Sequence record: MN709127.1
Direction: 5' to 3' (one strand)
DNA length: 64,000 nt
Origin: Escherichia phage Ec_Makalu_002
The notes under the pieces were generated by a model. The model was not told the DNA's origin, searched no databases, and saw only the letters and a program-made list of their open reading frames with translations. The position numbers were made by a program, and so were the translations under genes. Each line of letters begins with the position of its first letter. Position 1 is the first letter of the stretch. Below, in pieces: positions 11,977 to 56,754 of this stretch.

Positions 11977-12005
11977 AAAAGCCGTCCTTGTGGGCGGCTT
12001 TTTTG
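11977..12005 (+). terminator. Rho-independent terminator after methyltransferase gene
   Basis: Hairpin AAGCCG...CGGCTT followed by TTTTT. Confidence 0.6.
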
Positions 12006-12014
12006 TATGTATTT

Positions 12015-34078: not shown

Positions 34079-34082
34079 TTTG

Positions 34083-34090
34083 TATAAATA
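34083..34090 (+). promoter_or_regulatory. T4-type late promoter TATAAATA upstream of gene 24
   Basis: Exact TATAAATA about 38 nt upstream of ATG 34128. Confidence 0.6.
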
Positions 34091-34127
34091 TGATATATCC
34101 ATTAAGGCAAATACAGGATTCATAAAC

Positions 34128-35369
34128 ATGACTCATATTTTTACTGAACTGTTGCGGGAATCTACTTCCTCAGTAGCTAACCAGACAGCGCGACCGCAAC
34201 TATTATCATTAACTCGCGCGGTAAACAACCTGATTTTCTCTGATCTGGTAGCAATCCAGCCAACGGATCAACCAGTATCTGCATTGTACGGCCTACGTTA
34301 TCTTAATCGTGATGGTCAGATGACTTTCCGAACTGCTGCAACCTACGGTGGTGCGGTTGGTGATCGCACAGAGATTGAAGAGTTTTCAAAAGAAAAATCT
34401 TATGACGAAGGCGCACTATTCAAATCAGGCGATGTTGTATACGAAGTTGTGACCGCTGGTACAGTCGGTGAAGATGCCGCAACTCCAGAAGCTGCGATCT
34501 TTAAAGGCGTAATGACAAACAAAATTCGTTTCTATAGCGATTGTGCATCGGTAGAATACTTTGAAGATAAAAACACCGAAATTGCGTCTACCTCTATGCA
34601 GTTTGACAAGTGGCAAGTTAATGTAGGTTCTCGTAAACTGAAAACCTCGTTCACCACTGAATTAATGCAGGATCTTGAGGCAAGCCAAATCAACTCTGAA
34701 AACTCTGTAATTGATCTTCTGGCTACTGTTGCTTCCGAAGAGATCAACAAAGATATTATTCAGAAGTTGATCACTGTATCATCTCGCTATAAAATTAAAG
34801 GGATCACCCCTGATGGCGTACTTTCTCTCGTTAGCGTTCAGGATGCACCAACACAAGCGCGTGAACTTTACCGCTATGCTTGCGAGATGAGCAATCAAAT
34901 GTTGCGGACTTCCTCCTTTGCTGGTACATACGTTTTGGCGTCTTCTCGCGTGGTTGGCCTCCTGCAATCTTCCGGTTGGATGGAAGAAACCGACAATGCT
35001 CTAAGCGAAGGTCGTCTACGTTGCGGTCTGGAAGTTTACGCAGACACGACAACACCTTTCGATTATATGCTCGTTGGTTGCAAGCACATGATCGGTGATA
35101 TGGAGAGTGTCGGTTCTCTGTTCTACTCCCCATATACAGAAGCTGACGGCGCTGGCGCGTATAAGAGCGTAATTGACCCTAATAGCTTCCAGCATCATGT
35201 AGCTATTATGAATCGTTATTCACTCTCTGTCAACCCATACACATCAAAAGTTGATCAGGAAGAACACCAGGTCATCAAGGGTGACGATTGGGGTAAAATG
35301 GCTGGACGTTCAGAAATGTCCTACATTTTAGGAATCGAACTGCCACCACTTGAGATTGACAACGCTTAA
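34128..35369 (+). CDS. 24: Capsid vertex protein gp24
   Basis: ORF track starts at TTG 34080 (overlapping the late promoter); ATG 34128 gives MTHIFTELLRES..., aligning with T4 gp24 N-terminus as recalled. Confidence 0.85.
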   Translation: MTHIFTELLRESTSSVANQTARPQLLSLTRAVNNLIFSDLVAIQPTDQPVSALYGLRYLNRDGQMTFRTAATYGGAVGDRTEIEEFSKEKSYDEGALFKSGDVVYEVVTAGTVGEDAATPEAAIFKGVMTNKIRFYSDCASVEYFEDKNTEIASTSMQFDKWQVNVGSRKLKTSFTTELMQDLEASQINSENSVIDLLATVASEEINKDIIQKLITVSSRYKIKGITPDGVLSLVSVQDAPTQARELYRYACEMSNQMLRTSSFAGTYVLASSRVVGLLQSSGWMEETDNALSEGRLRCGLEVYADTTTPFDYMLVGCKHMIGDMESVGSLFYSPYTEADGAGAYKSVIDPNSFQHHVAIMNRYSLSVNPYTSKVDQEEHQVIKGDDWGKMAGRSEMSYILGIELPPLEIDNA

Positions 35370-35957
35370 CTAAATATCTAACCAAGACAAGTCAGATCCG
35401 CCCAAGATTTTTTCGACGGCGGATCTATTTTCTTGATGATATAAGTTAAAACATGGTATCCCATGTCTACGGGCAACATAAACAGCAATTCGAGTTCCTC
35501 CCGAAACGATTCCATTAACTTCTTTCGCCCAGAATATCACACAATCTACAGGATCATCAAGTGTCTCACCTAAGACTTGAGCAACATTTCTAGAAAACAG
35601 ATTTTGCATGTATAACGGTATAGAACGAGGATTATCATAAACGTGTTCTAATTCATCCATCGCCAGATTTTTTTGTTCTAAGGTTTGCCATGCAATCACA
35701 TCATGACCGTTATGCTTGTGATCATAAAACTTCCAATTTGGAATGAAAATTTTTCTATAATCTGGATCGTAATACTTCATGAAAGCATTGTCCATACCGT
35801 AAGCCCCTCCAGAATGCGCTACAACGCGATTTTCTGACAATACCCTCCCAATGGTACTAGCCATTATCAAAATGTCGCTAGGCGCTTTTCTAGAGCCTAT
35901 TAAAGCACATCTACGAAGTGGTTTTACTCCAAATAGATCTTGTAACTGGTCAAACAT
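35370..35957 (-). CDS. SLOG/DprA-like Rossmann-fold protein
   Basis: Motifs ALIGSRKAPSD and VVAHSGGAYGMD resemble the DprA/Smf-LOG nucleotide-binding core; ATG with GGAGG site. Confidence 0.5.
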   Translation of the reverse strand: MFDQLQDLFGVKPLRRCALIGSRKAPSDILIMASTIGRVLSENRVVAHSGGAYGMDNAFMKYYDPDYRKIFIPNWKFYDHKHNGHDVIAWQTLEQKNLAMDELEHVYDNPRSIPLYMQNLFSRNVAQVLGETLDDPVDCVIFWAKEVNGIVSGGTRIAVYVARRHGIPCFNLYHQENRSAVEKILGGSDLSWLDI

Positions 35958-36110
35958 AATATTTCCTCCATAGAAAGCAATATCATACTACAAGTTAATA
36001 ACAAATACAAGTATCCGCGTAGCGGAAGCGAGCACAGCGAGCAATAAAACACTTCCAGTAATTGATTAATAAATGTTCGAAACAAATTTTTATTATTCTA
36101 TAAGATAAGT

Positions 36111-36135
36111 CTTCGTTTTGATCATAATTTAATCA
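36111..36135. repeat. Direct repeat copy 1 (CTTCGTTTTGATCATAATTTAATCA)
   Basis: Identical 25-mer repeated 149 bp downstream in a region without ORFs. Confidence 0.5.
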
Positions 36136-36259
36136 TACATGTAAAAACGACACAAAAGGATATCGCTTCGCGAACTCCTACGGAGTATAACATTTGTGTT
36201 ACATTATGTGGTGATTAATAATTAATCAAAGATACATTTTCTATGTTCTAAAGATCTTT

Positions 36260-36284
36260 CTTCGTTTTGATCATAATTTAATCA
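36260..36284. repeat. Direct repeat copy 2
   Basis: Identical to 36111-36135. Confidence 0.5.
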
Positions 36285-36336
36285 AACAGTATTAATATTG
36301 TCCATATGTAAACTAAAATTATGTCAGTAATAGATA

Positions 36337-36362
36337 CAAAAAAGCCGCCCCGAAGGACGGCT
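36337..36362 (-). terminator. Minus-strand terminator after 36371..36808 gene
   Basis: Hairpin AGCCGTCCTTCGGGGCGGCT followed by T-run on minus strand. Confidence 0.5.
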
Positions 36363-36370
36363 AATGTTAA

Positions 36371-36808
36371 TTATTTGTTGATAACGATCTGATTTCGGCG
36401 AATGGTAACATTACTCTTAGAGATGATCAGATCATCCGGCACTACGTTAGTTTTGTATGGTTGGAAGCGAACAAGCATCTGATTGCGTTTAGACCCTTCC
36501 TTAATCTTGATTTCCATCTGGATATTGTTGCCTACGTGAGCAACCGCAATTTCACCTTTATTCTCATAGACCCACTTGCTGGTAACGTCTCCCGCAAAAG
36601 CCTTAATAACTTGCAATGCTTCGTCGTATGCGGTAGAGCTGTGAACTTTCAGAAGGCCAGCCGTAGCAAGACGGGAGCAGGTGATCGCCGGAGATTGCCA
36701 AACATCAACATTAATTTGCTCAATCAGAGTAACACCGCCCTGATCAACTGCTTTGAATGCTTCGAACATTGCCTTTTTCATTGCTACGTGGTTTTTACGG
36801 AATTTCAT
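36371..36808 (-). CDS. Hypothetical protein
   Basis: 145 aa ORF with ATG start; followed by terminator. Confidence 0.5.
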   Translation of the reverse strand: MKFRKNHVAMKKAMFEAFKAVDQGGVTLIEQINVDVWQSPAITCSRLATAGLLKVHSSTAYDEALQVIKAFAGDVTSKWVYENKGEIAVAHVGNNIQMEIKIKEGSKRNQMLVRFQPYKTNVVPDDLIISKSNVTIRRNQIVINK

Positions 36809-37327: not shown

Positions 37328-37496
37328 ACTTCACCTCATACATTCATAAACACAACAACGAATAGGACAGTAACAGTTATTAAAGCCATTTTCAACCCCA
37401 TATTCATAATATTTTCTTCGCCTCACGATGACAGTAGCATGTCGATGCGTGCCATTATAGGCATCTAAATCGCTCTGTCAAGCACAAAAACAAAAA

Positions 37497-37516
37497 AGCC
37501 ACCCCGAAGGATGGCT
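37497..37516 (-). terminator. Minus-strand terminator after hoc-like gene
   Basis: Hairpin AGCCATCCTTCGGGGTGGCT followed by T-run on minus strand; sister of the 36337 hairpin. Confidence 0.5.
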
Positions 37517-37527
37517 GATAGATTTCA

Positions 37528-38730
37528 TTAATCACGAATGCGTAGAACTCGCTCTAACGTCTCTCGGTCCAGTTTATGTAACTCTTTGGAATGATACATG
37601 AAACCATTGCGAGATTCCATGCAAGTGCAATCACTATATTTTTCTTCCGCTGCCGCGATTGTCTCCAGATCTTTGGCGTACTTGCTGGTTGAATAAACTT
37701 CTCGGTTACGCCACTCTAACCCAGCCTCATTGAATTTAACAATCTCGTCAAATACCCACCATCCAATGTAGATAAATGAAGTTTTGCGCCACGGGATCGG
37801 GTGTACGTAACGAAACATTTTAACAACTTCCATTGAACATTTTCTACTTGTACTTGTTGCAACTTCTACTGTTTCATCTTCGATCTGTTGATATAGTTTA
37901 GCAACACACCAGAATTTGGCTGTGTCATCGTAAGTAGCACTCTCTTTGAACAGATGACCGTCTGGCATGATAGAAAATCCTTCCAGTGCTTCGCCGACCT
38001 CACTACCGATTAGAGTCGGTGACAGTTGTCCTTCGCGCTGCAAATACCAGTTATGTTTGATCGTCAATGTAGGCATACCGCTAGAATCGCCTACAATGTC
38101 CTCTGACACAACATAATTAAGTGAGATCTCATTACCTAGTGCCACGGTCTTTGATTCCACCACATCCTGTTCTACGTTCATTGTTGCCAGCATGATTTTA
38201 GTCGATGCGCTATCGGCTGAATCTTCCGACTCACCCCACACTTTTACAGTATACACGCCGTTTTTATCTGCTGTAAATTTTTGGATCGTAATATCCTGTG
38301 TTGTGTCTATAACTTCTTCGCCCTTACTCCAACTATAATGTAGTTCATAGTTGTCTGCTGGAGTCTTCCCACCCGAAAATTTTACTGTTGCATGTAATTC
38401 TACGTTTGTTTGTGATGATACGTAGAATTGCTGCGGTTCGGTGATATTTACGATTAATTCAGCTTCTTCCATGAGGAAAACTTCAGATTCTACTGATTCC
38501 ATCGTATCGGTATCTTGTACCGTTACTTTATAGCTACCCGCATTTTCACTTGTTGCGTCTGCTACAGTTAGCGTAGCTGTGCTATTTTCATGCGGTTGGT
38601 CGTCTTTTGTCCATGTATATGTCAAATTGCTGGGTAATGGTTCGTCACCCGCTACAGTCGCCGTTAAGGTGAAACCATCTCCAGCAAGAAAACATCTTTT
38701 GTTGGATTGTATTGATACTGTGAAAGCCAT
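37528..38730 (-). CDS. hoc: Hoc-like outer capsid protein with Ig-like domains
   Basis: 400 aa; repeated Ig-like segments (TYTWTKDD...ENAGSYKVTV, YSWSKGEE...KNGVYTVKV); position relative to gene 24 as in T4. Confidence 0.6.
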   Translation of the reverse strand: MAFTVSIQSNKRCFLAGDGFTLTATVAGDEPLPSNLTYTWTKDDQPHENSTATLTVADATSENAGSYKVTVQDTDTMESVESEVFLMEEAELIVNITEPQQFYVSSQTNVELHATVKFSGGKTPADNYELHYSWSKGEEVIDTTQDITIQKFTADKNGVYTVKVWGESEDSADSASTKIMLATMNVEQDVVESKTVALGNEISLNYVVSEDIVGDSSGMPTLTIKHNWYLQREGQLSPTLIGSEVGEALEGFSIMPDGHLFKESATYDDTAKFWCVAKLYQQIEDETVEVATSTSRKCSMEVVKMFRYVHPIPWRKTSFIYIGWWVFDEIVKFNEAGLEWRNREVYSTSKYAKDLETIAAAEEKYSDCTCMESRNGFMYHSKELHKLDRETLERVLRIRD

Positions 38731-45833: not shown

Positions 45834-47563
45834 ATGACGCATTAACATCATTTCGCGGGATGCGCAAGGAAGCGGAAGAAAATCCGATTGATAAACTTAA
45901 CAAATTAGATAAACTTGATTCTATTGATAATTTGCAAGCCGCTACCGAATTGGTGGCGGAGACAGTAGAACAAAAATCTAATGAAGTTGTTGGTGCGGTA
46001 GAGGATAACACCGCAGCCAATGAATTAACGGCAGAGAATACACAATCTACCGCTGGCAATACCCAAAAAACTTATGAAGAATTGCAAAAACTCAATAATT
46101 TCTCTTCTCAGATGAATGAGAAATTACGTGGTTTTGGCGTTATGATGGAACGTAGATTTGGTGTTGTCAGTAAAATGGCGAGCGGTATTGGTGCGATTGA
46201 AGAAGCACTGAAAAAACCGGAACAACCGCAAACAATGCCATCACCTCAGCCAGTTTTGCCTACTGTACCGGAACAGCCTAATAATGACAACTATCAAGGT
46301 CTTCCAAAGAAAAAACCAGATGTTGATGACCGAAAGAAAAAGAACGCCACAGATAAGCGTAATGCGGATTCTATGGAGAATCTTATTAAAGTTGTTCGTG
46401 GTGGATTTAAAGAAACCATAGGAATCTCTAATAAGGTCTTAGGGATGTTATTTAAGATCACCTTAACCGCAATGGCAGAAGCCGCAAAATGGGGTGCTAT
46501 TTTGATGGGTATTGTTTTCGTCATTGATACCCTGATGGTTCATTTCAGATATTGGAGCGATTTATTCGAAACAAAATTCGATGATTTTATGGATAAGGCC
46601 GGAGAATGGGCTGGACCAATTAGTGATATTCTAACAACTATTCGTCAAGTTCGAGATTATTGGTCTAAAGGCGAATATGGAGAATTAATTAAATCTCTTG
46701 TTATGGGTATTGGTGATGCATTCTATAAAACCTTTATCCAACTTGATCGAATTATCACTACTGGTATTGCTAAAATTCTTCGCATGATTCCTGGTATGGG
46801 TGATTATGCCGATAAGTTAGAATATGGTGCTTTAAAATCTGCTGTCGCTCAAGGATATACGCCAAATGAAAGAGAACTCGAATTAATGGATAAGGTCGAG
46901 TCTGAACACGAAAAAGACAAGTATGGAGAGCGCACAGGGTGGACCGGAAAAGCCCGTGATATTGGCGAAGCTATCGGGGATTCTATTAAGGATAAAGTTA
47001 ACGAAGGTCTTGTTAGTCTGGGTTGGCGAGATCAAAAGGATGTTGACGCAGAGAAGCGACAAGAAGAATTAAAGCGCGGAGAATATGAGTCTGTTTCTGC
47101 TGAACAACGATCTGCTAGTCGTAAACTTAGAATTAAAAGTGAGGGCGCGATCAACAATATTAATGAAGTTATGGAGAATTTGAGCGGTGACTATGACAAA
47201 GAAAGAATGGGAGAGTTGAAAAAGGATATTGATGTTTACCGTGAGAAAGTTCAAGATCCTACATTAGTTGAAAGTGATCGTTCTCAGTTAGAGCGTCTTA
47301 TTGAAAAATTTGATGAGATGTATGCTGATAAAACTAAGGGTGTTGTGCAAACACAGCCAGTTCCTGCAACTGAAACGGAAACAGCAAAACAAGCGGAACG
47401 TACTGAACAAATGCAGAAACAAGCTGCAATCCAGCAACAAACGACAAATCAGACCTCAAACGTAAATAATACACAAATTGTAACAAACAATAGAACTATT
47501 AAACAGGGTGCACCAACAACTAGAATTGATGCCCCAGGTACAATTAATATGGGGAACTTTTAA
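45830..47563 (+). CDS. 29: Tail tape measure / baseplate hub protein gp29
   Basis: 577 aa; synteny and size (T4 gp29 590 aa). Confidence 0.8.
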   Translation: MNDALTSFRGMRKEAEENPIDKLNKLDKLDSIDNLQAATELVAETVEQKSNEVVGAVEDNTAANELTAENTQSTAGNTQKTYEELQKLNNFSSQMNEKLRGFGVMMERRFGVVSKMASGIGAIEEALKKPEQPQTMPSPQPVLPTVPEQPNNDNYQGLPKKKPDVDDRKKKNATDKRNADSMENLIKVVRGGFKETIGISNKVLGMLFKITLTAMAEAAKWGAILMGIVFVIDTLMVHFRYWSDLFETKFDDFMDKAGEWAGPISDILTTIRQVRDYWSKGEYGELIKSLVMGIGDAFYKTFIQLDRIITTGIAKILRMIPGMGDYADKLEYGALKSAVAQGYTPNERELELMDKVESEHEKDKYGERTGWTGKARDIGEAIGDSIKDKVNEGLVSLGWRDQKDVDAEKRQEELKRGEYESVSAEQRSASRKLRIKSEGAINNINEVMENLSGDYDKERMGELKKDIDVYREKVQDPTLVESDRSQLERLIEKFDEMYADKTKGVVQTQPVPATETETAKQAERTEQMQKQAAIQQQTTNQTSNVNNTQIVTNNRTIKQGAPTTRIDAPGTINMGNF

Positions 47564-48621
47564 TGAAAATTAGTGTTATCAATGATGCCGTTGATAGCTT
47601 TAAAGCGGGGGTTAAAACCTCCGCTGGTTTTACCTCAAAAAATAAAGGGAAAACATTAACCGCTCAATTCCCCGCTGAACGTGCTAGCGGTAATGATGCT
47701 AGCGGTTATTATATCAACGACTTATATAATAATGGTCTGTTATTCACTGCATACGATTATACATCTCGTACTACCGGATCGTTGCGTGATTTCAGGAAAA
47801 AGAAAAATGTTGCTAGTGGTTTTGGTGGTAGCGTTAATATCGCTGGTTTTGATTTAAATTTGGGTGGGAGAAATGCTGCATTTGACCGAGAGGCAATTGC
47901 TAATATTCTTCTTCCTCGTAGTCAATCTGACGTTGACGCTGCTAGCCATAAGTTTAATGATGTTGGTGAATCTGTTATTTCTCGCGGTGGTGGTACTTTA
48001 GGAGGTGCTCTTTCTAATATGGCATCTACTGCCGTTTTTGGTGGTATCGAAAGTATTACTGGTGGATATCTTGCCGATCACGGTGAACAGATTTATAATA
48101 CTGCTCGAAGCATGTATGCTGGTGCTGACGCACGAACTAAAAACTACGTATGGCATCTAACCCCACGTAGTATTGAAGACCTTCGCAATATTCTAATCAT
48201 ATACGAAACGTTTTTAGAATTGTCTTATGGTTCTAGTGGTATTTCCAGCACCGCAAAAGAATTAAAAGCGGAAGTTGATGCGTGGTATAAAAATACACTA
48301 TTGAGAAAATCCACCCCAGAGGAAGCGAAGAGAAACGATACTCTGTTTGAAGGGATCACCGATTTTCTATCAAACGTAATTACTGTATCTAACCCGACAA
48401 TATGGATGATCTCTAACTTCGGCAAGCGTACATCGTTTGAAGGGCGTAGCGATGCATTTGGTCCCGCTCAGATCTCAAGTGTACGTCTGGACAAGTCGCC
48501 TGATGGTAAGTTTAATGGCCTTGCTATTTCTCCTAACTTGCCGAGTACCTTTGTTCTGGAAGTATCATTTAGAGAGATCTTGACACTTTCCCGTGGTACT
48601 ATATTTGGGAGTGCGGCATAA
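47563..48621 (+). CDS. 48: Baseplate tail-tube cap protein gp48
   Basis: 352 aa; synteny and size. Confidence 0.8.
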   Translation: MKISVINDAVDSFKAGVKTSAGFTSKNKGKTLTAQFPAERASGNDASGYYINDLYNNGLLFTAYDYTSRTTGSLRDFRKKKNVASGFGGSVNIAGFDLNLGGRNAAFDREAIANILLPRSQSDVDAASHKFNDVGESVISRGGGTLGGALSNMASTAVFGGIESITGGYLADHGEQIYNTARSMYAGADARTKNYVWHLTPRSIEDLRNILIIYETFLELSYGSSGISSTAKELKAEVDAWYKNTLLRKSTPEEAKRNDTLFEGITDFLSNVITVSNPTIWMISNFGKRTSFEGRSDAFGPAQISSVRLDKSPDGKFNGLAISPNLPSTFVLEVSFREILTLSRGTIFGSAA

Positions 48622-56722: not shown

Positions 56723-56747
56723 AAAAAAGCCGACACTAAGGTCGGCT
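56723..56747 (-). terminator. Minus-strand terminator after paralogue P1
   Basis: AGCCGACCTTAGTGTCGGCT followed by TTTTTT on minus strand. Confidence 0.55.
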
Positions 56748-56754
56748 AATAAAA

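What the first reader, a model, noticed from the sequence alone, without database searches (positions are those of the whole stretch)
35958..36370. 413-bp ORF-free interval containing two identical 25-bp direct repeats
Between two minus-strand genes there is no ORF of meaningful length on either strand, yet the interval contains CTTCGTTTTGATCATAATTTAATCA twice (36111-36135 and 36260-36284), each in a similar local context, and ends with a terminator hairpin. Candidate functions are a small RNA, a pair of protein-binding sites, or the footprint of an excised mobile element.
Basis: seen in the sequence. Interest (0 to 1): 0.4.

Follow-up and report, generated by a model that had tools for sequence, protein, structure and literature searches.

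The report
Tandem conserved control modules in phage spacer
The two identical 25-base repeats are one arm of two tandem copies of an AT-rich, palindrome-like module that all relatives of this RB49-type coliphage keep between two genes; it is most likely a duplicated transcription-control region, conserved but not experimentally explained.

Summary
CTTCGTTTTGATCATAATTTAATCA occurs exactly twice, at 36111-36135 and 36260-36284, where chance predicts none. The window is a Krischvirus (an RB49/phi1-type T4-like coliphage). The interval is the spacer between ORF165 and the DprA-like ORF164, both on the minus strand.

The 25-mers are the upstream arms of two ~73-bp AT-rich, imperfectly palindromic units, U1 (36212-36284) and U2 (36063-36135). 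Each unit is followed by small GC hairpins. This layout, with 2-3 units, is kept in every relative found, down to 50% protein identity, and the hairpins show compensatory base changes. Among 15 close Krischviruses the unit centres and hairpins are invariant, the spacers between them are hypervariable, and the 25-mers are intermediate.

The units occur nowhere else in 114 kb of genome. They match no Rfam family or tRNA, and they are not members of the phage's stereotyped early-promoter (PeSL) family.

My best reading (about 0.4) is a minus-strand control region: terminator, two weak promoter-like modules with stem-loops, then a conserved proximal promoter and ribosome-binding site for ORF164. 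Small-RNA genes, an origin-like binding array and antisense promoters are not excluded. An excision footprint is rejected.

The parts
36371..36808 (-). ORF165 (phi1p165 / RB49ORF165c), 145 aa of unknown function; the gene upstream of the interval
   Evidence: ORF and annotation. No Pfam match; PHROG 15652, function unknown. The AF2 model (pLDDT 81) matches no PDB fold and only uncharacterised proteins of T4-like phages in BFVD.
36343..36362 (-). Intrinsic terminator of ORF165: AGCCGTCC-UUCG-GGGCGGCU followed by UUUUUUGU
   Evidence: Terminator scan. Annotated as a terminator in Makalu_001 and G2248. TransTerm site 97821-97838 in RB49. Near-copies occur elsewhere in the window.
36212..36284 (-). 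Unit 1 (U1), a ~73-bp AT-rich imperfect palindrome: left arm (the 25-mer), invariant centre containing TAGAAC (36245-36250), and a right arm that is the 17-bp palindrome TGATTAATTATTAATCA
   Evidence: Repeat families D1 and I5. nhmmer with the unit profile gives E = 6e-15. Unit alignment. The centre 36229-36259 has 0 of 31 variable columns among 15 genomes.
36260..36284 (-). It comprises the near-palindromic 17-mer O_L (36268-36284) plus 8 nt, and contains the -35-like hexamer ATGATC (36269-36274)
   Evidence: 3 of 25 columns vary among 15 Krischviruses.
36212..36228 (.). O_R, the perfect 17-bp palindrome TGATTAAT-A/T-ATTAATCA; the best-conserved sequence block of the unit across lineages
   Evidence: The only exact match to TGATTAANNNTTAATCA in the window; 5 matches at up to 2 mismatches against 0.93 expected, 3 of them in this interval. 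81% of half-site pairs are Watson-Crick across 14 distinct copies.
36174..36186 (-). HP-a, mini-hairpin ACTCC-GTA-GGAGT (GNA triloop on the minus strand)
   Evidence: Present in all lineages with changed stems: AATCC/GGATT, ATGCC/GGCAT, CATGCC/GGCATG. Covariation. 0 of 24 variable columns for HP-a plus HP-b.
36163..36173 (-). HP-b, mini-hairpin TCGC-GAA-GCGA (GCGAAGC core)
   Evidence: RNAalifold pair 27-35 is U-A in 4 sequences and C-G in 3.
36063..36135 (-). Unit 2 (U2), the second copy of the module: the 25-mer, a centre containing TATAGAAT (36095-36102), and a degenerate right arm TTTGTTTCGAACATTTATTAATCA (36063-36086)
   Evidence: Families D1 and I1. nhmmer E = 6e-13. 36063-36110 has 1 of 48 variable columns.
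36111..36135 (-). Copy 2 of the 25-mer
36028..36042 (-). Conserved direct repeat GCTCGC-TGT-GCTCGC (the 'GCTCGC box'); role unknown
   Evidence: Kept as GCTCGCTTTGCTCGC (L005, L146) and GCTCACTGCGTTCGC (L022, L024).
36014..36026 (-). HP-c, hairpin TCCGC-TAC-GCGGA followed by a T-rich stretch; a weak terminator or attenuator candidate immediately upstream of P3
   Evidence: Terminator-like site. Two stem pairs covary across 6 lineages: U-A/C-G/G-C/A-U and C-G/G-C/A-U. 0 of 13 variable columns.
35982..36010 (-). P3, the proximal sigma70-like promoter candidate TTGTAT-17-TATGAT for ORF164
   Evidence: PWM 7.7 bits. The same position and 17-nt spacing hold in relatives: TTGTTT-17-TATAAT in L146 (read); TTGTTT-17-TATGAT in L005, TTGATT-17-TATAGT in L022 and TTGTGT-17-TATAAT in L024.
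35955..35969 (-). Shine-Dalgarno GGAGG (35965-35969) and the ATG of ORF164
   Evidence: Sequence; ribosome-binding site annotated in Makalu_001.
35370..35957 (-). ORF164, DprA-like (SLOG-type) protein of 195 aa; the gene downstream of the interval
   Evidence: PHROG 768 at 1e-60. Pfam DNA_processg_A match below threshold. RefSeq annotation.

Best explanation
**What it is.** The interval is a clade-specific composite transcription-control region read on the minus strand, in the same direction as the flanking genes. In order, it contains:
- the strong UUCG terminator of ORF165;
- two tandem copies of a ~73-bp AT-rich, dyad-symmetric module, U1 and U2;
- small covarying GC stem-loops after each module (HP-a and HP-b after U1; the GCTCGC box and HP-c after U2);
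- a conserved weak proximal promoter (P3) and ribosome-binding site for the DprA-like ORF164.

**Role of the 25-mer.** It is the upstream arm of each module. It supplies an AT-rich UP-like stretch and a -35-like hexamer ((A/T)TGA(T/A)C). The invariant unit centre, 17 nt further on, carries a TATAAT-like element, so transcripts would start inside the unit. They would either stop at the stem-loops, giving short leader or sRNA-like RNAs, or read on towards ORF164.

**Origin of the perfect identity.** The identity of the two 25-mers in this phage is most simply a short patch of homogenisation (gene conversion) between old tandem paralogues.

**Shown versus inferred.**
- Shown: the anatomy, its conservation, hairpin covariation, mosaic constraint, and the fact that the units are specific to this locus.
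- Inferred: promoter activity, strand, and the fate of any transcripts.
For: 1. **Architecture is conserved.** The terminator, 2-3 units, mini-hairpins, P3 and SD are present in all 58 Krischvirus records. They are also present in metagenomic relatives whose ORF164 or ORF165 proteins are 93, 89, 88, 87, 70, 59, 57 and 50% identical, although these phage genomes are otherwise tightly packed.
2. **Promoter geometry.** A TATAAT-like hexamer lies 17 nt after the (A/T)TGA(T/A)C hexamer in most units. It is a perfect TATAAT in L021_U1, L022_U1, L026_U1 and L026_U2, and TATAGT in L146_U2. L026_U1 reads TTGAAC-17-TATAAT at 12.3 bits, the best site in that spacer.
3. **Constraint is mosaic.** Among 15 close genomes the unit centres have 0/31 and 1/48 variable columns, HP-a plus HP-b 0/24 and HP-c 0/13. 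The spacers have 20/54 and 11/26. Each conserved block runs from a unit centre downstream through the hairpins, as expected for a transcribed element with its promoter core.
4. **Hairpins covary**. On the minus strand they carry GNA loops and are followed by T-rich tracts.
5. **P3 keeps its position.** Position, 17-nt spacing and the key -12T, -11A and -7T bases are kept in five lineages.
6. **The setting fits.** A terminator followed by a promoter and stem-loops is the logic described for PeSL cassettes in phi1/RB49 (PMC2839356).
7. **A natural variant moves toward consensus.** In G2248/PHB13 the U1 hexamer ATGATC becomes GTGACC, closer to TTGACA.
Against: - **Weak hexamers in this phage.** U1 has ATGATC-18-TAGAAC, with no T at -7. 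U2 has ATGATC-17-TATAGA, or TAGAAT at a 19-nt spacing. No unit register reaches the 5-bit listing threshold, against 13-16.6 bits for this phage's genuine early promoters.
- **Not predicted before.** Nolan et al. predicted no early promoter in the equivalent RB49 interval 97435-97847.
- **Conservation exceeds promoter needs.** It extends to the 17-bp palindrome O_R and the GCTCGC box.
- **Hexamers on the other strand.** In relatives there are equally good or better sigma70-like pairs on the opposite strand: TTGATG-17-TATAAT in L021, TTGATT-16-TATAAT in L005 and TTGATC-17-TATATT in L022.
- **Fold signal favours the plus strand.** The RNA-fold z-score of the region is -3.3 on the plus strand and -1.2 on the minus strand.
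- **No direct evidence.** No transcript data could be found.
Confidence: 0.4

Rival explanations
1. **Two tandem paralogous small non-coding RNA genes on the minus strand.** Each unit centre would start an RNA of about 85-95 nt. The U1 RNA would run from about 36240 to 36145: the O_R hairpin, HP-a, HP-b and a U-rich tail. The U2 RNA would run from about 36090 to 36000: the right arm, the GCTCGC box, HP-c and a U-rich tail. Both would act in trans or as cis leaders. This overlaps with the best explanation and differs in saying the RNAs themselves are the product.
For: - Conserved blocks of about 100 and 150 nt are bounded by hypervariable spacers.
- The hairpins covary.
- T-rich tracts follow HP-b and HP-c.
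- P3 already provides ORF164 with a promoter, so the upstream 300 nt need another purpose.
Against: - No Rfam match.
- The promoters are weak or non-canonical.
- HP-b and HP-c have 4-5 bp stems and are poor intrinsic terminators.
- No consensus structure emerges beyond the mini-hairpins.
- The minus-strand fold z-score is only -1.2.
Confidence: 0.2
2. **A DNA-level element.** The units would form an iteron-like array of binding sites (17-bp palindromes of the form TGRTTAAT-N-ATTAAYCA, two per unit) for an unidentified dimeric phage or host protein. The array could act as operators or as part of a replication origin or recombination hot spot. In the origin version, the AT-rich centres unwind and the stable GNA-loop mini-hairpins form on the displaced strand.
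For: - There are 2-3 direct repeats, each with internal dyad symmetry, and the copy number varies.
- The palindrome O_R is the best-kept block, with symmetric changes A-T / G.T / G-C at one half-site pair.
- The motif is enriched only here.
- Units are homogenised within genomes: 87% in L005, 70% in L022 and 68% in L026, against 61% or less between lineages.
- Dyad symmetry is kept while the sequence drifts (L026 versus L022).
- From my own knowledge: GCGAAGC-type triloop hairpins are unusually stable as DNA; RB49-type phages lack the MotA-dependent promoters used by T4 origins.
Against: - No candidate binding protein: ORF165 has no DNA-binding fold match and gp24.3/DUF2774 has no informative match.
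- There are no other sites in the genome that would suggest a regulon.
- The left palindrome O_L is only 60% paired.
- No replication data exist, and no origin is known at this map position in T4.
Confidence: 0.15
3. **The units are plus-strand (antisense) promoters.** The -35 would be TTGATC, the reverse complement of GATCAA inside the 25-mer. The -10 would lie in the conserved block to the left of each unit (minus strand ATTATACT, plus strand AGTATAAT). These would drive RNAs antisense to the 3' end of ORF165 (from U1) and across the hairpin region (from U2).
For: - Good matches in relatives are scored: TTGATG-17-TATAAT in L021_U1 (11.4 bits), TTGATT-16-TATAAT in L005_U2, TTGCTT-16-TATAAT in L005_U1 and TTGATC-17-TATATT in L022_U1.
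- Further matches read directly from the sequences: L146_U2, L168_U1/U2 and L148.
- The plus-strand RNA fold z-score is -3.3.
Against: - In the window and all Krischviruses the -10 is TATTAA (U1) or GTAAAA (U2), without the key T at -7.
- The site is absent in L026 and in L022_U2.
- The terminator hairpin has a C.A mismatch and no U-tract on this strand.
- The GNA loops and T-tracts of the hairpins favour the minus strand.
Confidence: 0.1
4. **A largely functionless relic.** An old tandem duplication of a former promoter cassette would persist by chance, with only P3, the SD and the terminator in use. The identical 25-mers would be a recent gene-conversion patch.
For: - The spacer as a whole diverges about 5-6 times faster than the coding flanks among close relatives: 97.6% identity against about 99.5% for phi1.
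- The promoter hexamers are degenerate in this lineage.
- The whole-unit hairpin is weak here, with z about -1.7.
Against: - Unit centres and hairpins are invariant while adjacent spacers reach 37-39% variable columns.
- Hairpin stems covary.
- A gap of about 326-600 nt with the same order of parts survives to 50% protein identity in compact genomes with very active recombination, which should delete direct repeats.
Confidence: 0.1

Closest known systems
PeSL cassettes (promoter-early stem-loops) of phi1/RB49 and other T4-like phages (Arbiol et al. 2010, PMC2839356; Comeau et al. 2014, PMC4122927)
   Same: - Same phage group.
- Intergenic, placed between the stop codon and terminator of one gene and the SD and start of the next.
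- AT-rich, combining promoter-like hexamers with stem-loops.
- About 100 bp of conserved sequence.
- Located in a plastic region near hoc.
- HP-c followed by P3 fits the PeSL subclass in which the stem-loop lies just upstream of the -35.
   Different: - The units lack the family's signature: aaaaaGTTG-TTGACA-[G/C stem-loop]-TATAAT-gCACACATaCCGAAACGA.
- No unit register reaches 5 bits, against 13-16.6 bits for real PeSLs.
- They are not dispersed: only two copies in 114 kb.
- They are tandem with no gene between them.
- They were not predicted as early promoters in RB49.
Phage replication origins built from promoters plus AT-rich DNA (T7 primary origin with tandem promoters 1.1A/1.1B; T4 oriF/oriG with a promoter plus unwinding element), and lambda-type iteron origins (own knowledge)
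   Same: - Tandem promoter-like elements and AT-rich segments.
- Direct repeats with internal dyad symmetry.
- Specific to one locus.
   Different: - No initiator or replication data.
- Only 2-3 repeats, spaced about 150 bp apart.
- Not at a map position known as an origin in T4.
- Nothing was tested beyond sequence.
Symmetric, bidirectional bacterial promoters, in which AT-rich dyad symmetry gives -10 elements on both strands (own knowledge of Warman et al. 2021)
   Same: - Dyad-symmetric, AT-rich core.
- Plausible hexamers on both strands.
   Different: The hexamers are weak in this phage, and no transcription start data exist.
GNA-triloop mini-hairpins such as d(GCGAAGC) (own knowledge of Hirao and co-workers)
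   Same: - HP-b contains GCGAAGC exactly.
- HP-a is CC-GNA-GG.
- The loops stay GNA on the minus strand in all lineages.
   Different: Whether they form in DNA or RNA here, and whether that matters, is unknown.

Membership tests
PeSL (promoter-early stem-loop) cassette | Promoter identical or near-identical to the sigma70 consensus (TTGACA / TATAAT) | tested here: not met
   No register inside U1 or U2 reaches 5 bits, and P3 scores 7.7 bits. Genuine PeSL promoters in the same genome score 13-16.6 bits, and nearly all carry TTGACA or a one-base variant.
PeSL (promoter-early stem-loop) cassette | Stable stem-loop associated with the promoter | tested here: inconclusive
   HP-a, HP-b and HP-c exist and covary. 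However, their stems are 4-5 bp, without the poly-G/poly-C tracts typical of PeSLs.
PeSL (promoter-early stem-loop) cassette | Member of a dispersed repeat family (about 50 copies per genome) sharing about 100 bp of sequence | tested here: not met
   The unit profile finds only U1 and U2 in the window plus 50 kb of Makalu_001. BLAST of the interval against the window shares only the terminator.
PeSL (promoter-early stem-loop) cassette | Intergenic position between an upstream stop and a downstream SD/ATG, in a plastic region | tested here: met
   The region near hoc is noted as plastic. A homing-endonuclease-like gene is inserted here in L171.
Intrinsic (rho-independent) terminator (hairpin 36343-36362) | GC-rich stem-loop followed directly by a T-run, downstream of a stop codon on the same strand | tested here: met
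   8 pairs (6 G-C), a UUCG loop and TTTTTTGT on the minus strand, 8 nt after the ORF165 stop. Independently annotated.
Small RNA gene | Own promoter, own terminator, and conserved sequence or structure | tested here: inconclusive
   There are conserved blocks and covarying mini-hairpins. The promoter and terminator are weak, and there is no Rfam match.
Small RNA gene | A discrete transcript is made | not testable with these tools
   No transcriptome of an RB49-type phage was found in the paper library.
Iteron-type origin or operator array | Several direct repeats with dyad symmetry next to AT-rich DNA | tested here: met
   2-3 units per genome, each an imperfect palindrome with an AT-rich centre.
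Iteron-type origin or operator array | A cognate sequence-specific binding protein, or replication initiation at the site | not testable with these tools
   The neighbouring proteins gave no DNA-binding fold or family.
MITE / excision footprint of a mobile element | Dispersed copies, target-site duplication, and presence/absence polymorphism between relatives | tested here: not met
   There are no other copies. The element is present in all relatives at the same place. The repeat is part of a longer, old tandem duplication.
Known RNA families / tRNA | Match to an Rfam covariance model or a tRNA fold | tested here: not met
   The best Rfam E-values are 0.18-0.2, far below gathering scores, and all fall over the terminator. 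ARAGORN finds nothing.

The most novel reading that the evidence does not exclude
The tandem units would not be ordinary promoters. They would be either a lineage-specific origin-like or iteron array, or a pair of phage small-RNA genes. In the first case, palindromic 17-mers bind an unknown dimeric protein, the AT-rich centres unwind, and GNA-loop mini-hairpins form on the displaced strand. That would replace the MotA-dependent origins that RB49-type phages cannot have. Either reading would be the first such element defined for the Krischvirus group.
Probability: 0.25. Interest if true: 0.6.

Novelty: new variant of a known kind. Interest (0 to 1): 0.35.

Why it matters
- **An unexplained gap in well-studied phages.** RB49/phi1-type phages are used in phage therapy and as a comparison point for T4. 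Their regulation after the early phase is poorly understood, because they lack MotA-type middle promoters. In these phages genes usually abut, yet a spacer of roughly 330-600 nt has kept the same ordered set of parts for a long evolutionary time and appears in no published promoter or PeSL list.
- **If it is a control region.** It would show a second, locus-specific type of promoter and stem-loop cassette, and a way to express the DprA-like gene independently of the upstream operon.
- **If it is an origin-like array or sRNA pair.** It would give a first handle on replication initiation or RNA regulation in this group.
- **Practical use.** The invariant blocks (36229-36259, 36162-36185, 36063-36110 and 36014-36026) are precise targets for deletion and reporter experiments.

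Tried and rejected
- **Rfam and tRNA.** Scans of the region found nothing.
- **Dispersed copies.** An exact 20-mer scan of IMG/VR found only two Krischvirus contigs.
- **Uninformative scans.** The 16-mer TTCGCGAAGCGATATC and the 14-mer TGATCAAACGTCAT mostly gave chance hits.
- **MITE or footprint.** Rejected for lack of other copies.
- **ORF165 as a winged-helix regulator.** I guessed this from its sequence. It has no Pfam match and no PDB fold match; its only structural relatives are uncharacterised T4-like phage proteins.
- **gp24.3/DUF2774 as an HTH protein.** No informative PDB sequence match.
- **Whole-unit RNA hairpin.** Significant only in some lineages (L022, L026_U1, L021) and not in the window (z = -1.7 and -1.8), with no consistent strand bias.
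- **G.T versus A.C mismatch asymmetry in the 17-mers.** The count is 23 against 10, but most cases are inherited, so it is not decisive.
- **Long-range pairing of HP-b with the GCTCGC box.** Reading the sequences, I saw no covariation.
- **IHF, DnaA, ArgR and H-NS consensus sites.** I compared these by eye from memory. None fits well and none was tested further.
- **Late-promoter TATAAATA.** By eye it is not consistently present.
- **Literature.** A search for RB49 or Krischvirus transcriptomes found nothing usable. The RB49 genome paper (PMC135041) is not held.
- **More relatives.** Scans of metagenome and viral contigs with the ORF165 alignment added only close relatives. No cultured phage is closer to L022 or L026 than about 67%.
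Full report
**Identity of the window and the interval.** The window is a Krischvirus, an RB49/phi1/GEC-3S-type T4-like coliphage. The 1.4 kb around the finding is 99.8% identical to Escherichia phage Ec_Makalu_001 and 98.5-99.4% identical to the other records listed. The interval 35958-36370 is the spacer between two minus-strand genes. ORF165 (36371-36808) is a 145-aa protein of unknown function. ORF164 (35370-35957) is a 195-aa DprA-like protein. The locus lies between head vertex gene 24 on the plus strand (its longest ORF is 34080-35369) and hoc (37528-38730).

**Check of the observation.** The 25-mer occurs exactly at 36111-36135 and 36260-36284 and nowhere else in the window, even with 3 mismatches; shuffles gave none. 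Identity extends to 26 nt. The block lies inside a 77-nt direct repeat of 73% identity with a 149-nt period, and each copy is one arm of an imperfect inverted repeat (families D1, I1 and I5). The only sizeable ORF in the gap is a 53-aa TTG ORF that runs into ORF164. The hairpin at 36343-36362 is a minus-strand intrinsic terminator with a UUCG loop and a T-run, 8 nt after the ORF165 stop. Others have annotated it as such. It therefore opens the interval in the direction of transcription rather than closing it.

**Anatomy on the minus strand (coordinates).**
- Terminator, 36362-36343.
- Variable spacer.
- Unit 1, 36284-36212. Its parts are the 25-mer with the near-palindromic 17-mer O_L, a centre containing TAGAAC, and the perfect 17-bp palindrome O_R, TGATTAATTATTAATCA.
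- Mini-hairpins HP-a (ACTCC-GTA-GGAGT, 36186-36174) and HP-b (TCGC-GAA-GCGA, 36173-36163).
- T-rich variable spacer.
- Unit 2, 36135-36063. Its parts are the 25-mer, a centre containing TATAGAAT, and a degenerate right arm.
- Direct repeat GCTCGC-TGT-GCTCGC, 36042-36028.
- Hairpin HP-c (TCCGC-TAC-GCGGA, 36026-36014).
- P3, TTGTAT-17-TATGAT, 36010-35982.
- GGAGG, then the ATG at 35957.

**Conservation.**
- The spacer is present at 94.7-99.8% identity in all 58 Krischvirus records.
- Searches with the ORF164 and ORF165 proteins gave more distant relatives from metagenomes. Their contigs were fetched.
- All complete examples keep an ORF-free gap of about 326-600 nt between the two genes, with the same order of parts: a UUCG-type terminator, two units (three in L021), GNA-loop mini-hairpins, the GCTCGC box, HP-c, P3 and the SD. 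This holds down to 50% ORF164 identity (L026).
- In Proteus phage phiP4-3 (Bragavirus) the DprA-like gene also sits next to gene 24, but without such a spacer. The module is therefore specific to the Krischvirus-like clade.

**Age of the duplication.** The duplication predates these lineages, because the different contexts of U1 and U2 are shared across them. In several genomes the two units are nevertheless more alike than either is to any unit elsewhere: 87% in L005, 70% in L022 and 68% in L026, against 61% or less between lineages. This indicates local homogenisation. In the window lineage the units are only 62% identical overall, apart from the perfect 26-nt block. That block is not perfect in G2248/PHB13 or L025, and the corresponding sequences are quite different in L146. 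The exact repeat is therefore most simply a short conversion patch inside an old tandem duplication.

**Constraint.**
- Among 15 close Krischviruses, variable columns number 0/31 and 1/48 in the unit centres, 0/24 in HP-a plus HP-b, and 0/13 in HP-c.
- The two spacers have 20/54 and 11/26 variable columns; each 25-mer has 3/25.
- The hairpins are supported by compensatory changes. HP-b pair 27-35 is U-A in 4 sequences and C-G in 3. HP-c has two pairs with three or four pair types each. HP-a stems read ACTCC/GGAGT, AATCC/GGATT, ATGCC/GGCAT and CATGCC/GGCATG in different lineages.
- The interval therefore contains several elements under selection. The best-constrained ones are not the 25-mers.

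**What it is not.**
- No Rfam family reaches anywhere near threshold, and there is no tRNA.
- A profile of the unit finds only U1 and U2 in the window plus 50 kb more of the genome.
- The palindromic 17-mer motif is enriched only in this spacer.
- The element is therefore neither a dispersed repeat nor a MITE, and an excision footprint is not supported.
- It is also not a member of the PeSL family described for phi1/RB49. Genuine early promoters here are stereotyped: aaaaaGTTG-TTGACA-[GGGGATC..GATCCCC]-TATAAT-gCACACATaCCGAAACGA..GGAGAATCAAA-ATG. They score 13-16.6 bits on my sigma70 matrix. No register inside the units reaches 5 bits, the best site anywhere in the spacer scores 9.0, and the units share none of those blocks.
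- Nolan et al. predicted no early promoter in the equivalent RB49 interval. Their nearest is Pe:98401, which corresponds to window 36910-36883, inside gene 24.3.

**Promoter-like signals.**
- *Minus strand, inside the units.* A TATAAT-like hexamer lies 17 nt after an (A/T)TGA(T/A)C hexamer that forms the end of the 25-mer. It is a perfect TATAAT in L021_U1, L022_U1, L026_U1 and L026_U2, and TATAGT in L146_U2. In the window it is TAGAAC (18-nt spacing) in U1 and TATAGA/TAGAAT in U2.
- *Plus strand.* TTGATC, the reverse complement of part of the 25-mer, lies 16-17 nt from a TATAAT formed by a conserved block to the left of each unit. This is good in L005, L021_U1 and L022_U1 and, read directly from the sequences, in L146_U2, L168 and L148. 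In the window it is TATTAA (U1) or GTAAAA (U2).
- *P3.* This is the only site kept in position, spacing and key bases across lineages, apart from L026, which keeps only a -10-like TATAGT.
- *Strand evidence conflicts.* The GNA loops, the T-tracts after the hairpins, the gene orientation and the extent of the conserved blocks point to the minus strand. The RNA-fold z-score is better for the plus strand (-3.3 against -1.2). The whole-unit hairpin is significant only in some lineages.

**Neighbouring proteins.**
- ORF165 has no Pfam family.
- Its confident AF2 model (pLDDT 81) matches no PDB fold. It matches only uncharacterised proteins of other T4-like phages.
- gp24.3 is DUF2774, with no informative PDB match.
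- No candidate binding protein for the palindromes could be named.

**Interpretation.** I commit, at about 0.4, to a duplicated minus-strand transcription-control region: terminator, two weak or regulated promoter-like modules with following stem-loops, then P3 and the SD for ORF164. In logic it resembles PeSL cassettes, but it is a separate, locus-specific sequence family.

The alternatives that remain open are:
- the short transcripts are themselves the product, as sRNAs (0.2);
- the units act at the DNA level as a binding array or origin-like element (0.15);
- the units are antisense promoters (0.1);
- most of the spacer is a relic (0.1).

The anatomy, conservation, covariation and mosaic constraint are shown. 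Promoter activity, strand and the fate of any transcripts are inferred. Transcript mapping in infected cells would decide between these readings.

**Novelty.** I found no description of this element. The published RB49 promoter list has nothing in this interval. The main text of the PeSL paper does not mention ORF164 or ORF165, and its supplementary files are not held. I rate it a new variant of a known kind of phage intergenic regulatory cassette, of moderate interest.

Noticed in passing
window 11980-12013, 37490-37516, 56723-56750 (and 36343-36362): The UUCG-loop terminator after ORF165 belongs to a small family of near-identical terminator hairpins scattered through the window.
   Followed up: partly
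window minus strand, about 50.4-60.4 kb, plus 37481 and 36910: There is a dense series of highly stereotyped early promoters (PeSLs). Their form is aaaaaGTTG-TTGACA, a G/C stem-loop between -35 and -10, TATAAT/CATAAT, a conserved leader gCACACATaCCGAAACGA and the SD GGAGAATCAAA. One 12/12 consensus promoter (36910-36883) lies inside the coding sequence of gene 24.3.
   Followed up: partly
L171 1639-2547 (logan SRR21291472_17602): In one relative, a gene split into 197-aa and 73-aa ORFs is inserted between the ORF165 stop and the UUCG terminator. It has zinc-finger-like repeats and a GIY-YIG-like motif, so it looks like a homing endonuclease. This shows that the locus is a site of gene insertion.
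   Followed up: partly
L005 2270-2440: This relative has about 170 extra bases between P3 and the ORF164 start, with an apparent long hairpin (GATACCCTAAAA ... TTTTAGAGGGTAT).
   Followed up: no
window 36371-36808 (ORF165): The confident AF2 model has no PDB fold match. It resembles uncharacterised proteins of other T4-like phages (Erwinia Cronus, Citrobacter CF1, Enterobacter CC31 '24.3', Proteus phiP4-3), so it belongs to a widespread family of unknown function at this locus.
   Followed up: partly
window 35924-36085 (minus): A 53-aa TTG ORF covers HP-c and P3 and overlaps the ORF164 start. A few GenBank records, such as SSG23, annotate it as a hypothetical protein. It is probably a spurious call.
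   Followed up: no
window 36028-36042: A conserved direct repeat, GCTCGC-N3-GCTCGC, lies just before HP-c. It is kept in most lineages (L005, L146, L022, L024) and is unexplained. It partly mirrors the GCGAAGCGA of HP-b, but no covariation between the two was seen.
   Followed up: partly
L150 (Ec_Makalu_001) 47500-47720, outside the window: This is another ORF-free stretch of about 220 nt, upstream of a terminator and a PeSL promoter. It is unrelated in sequence to the units studied here.
   Followed up: no
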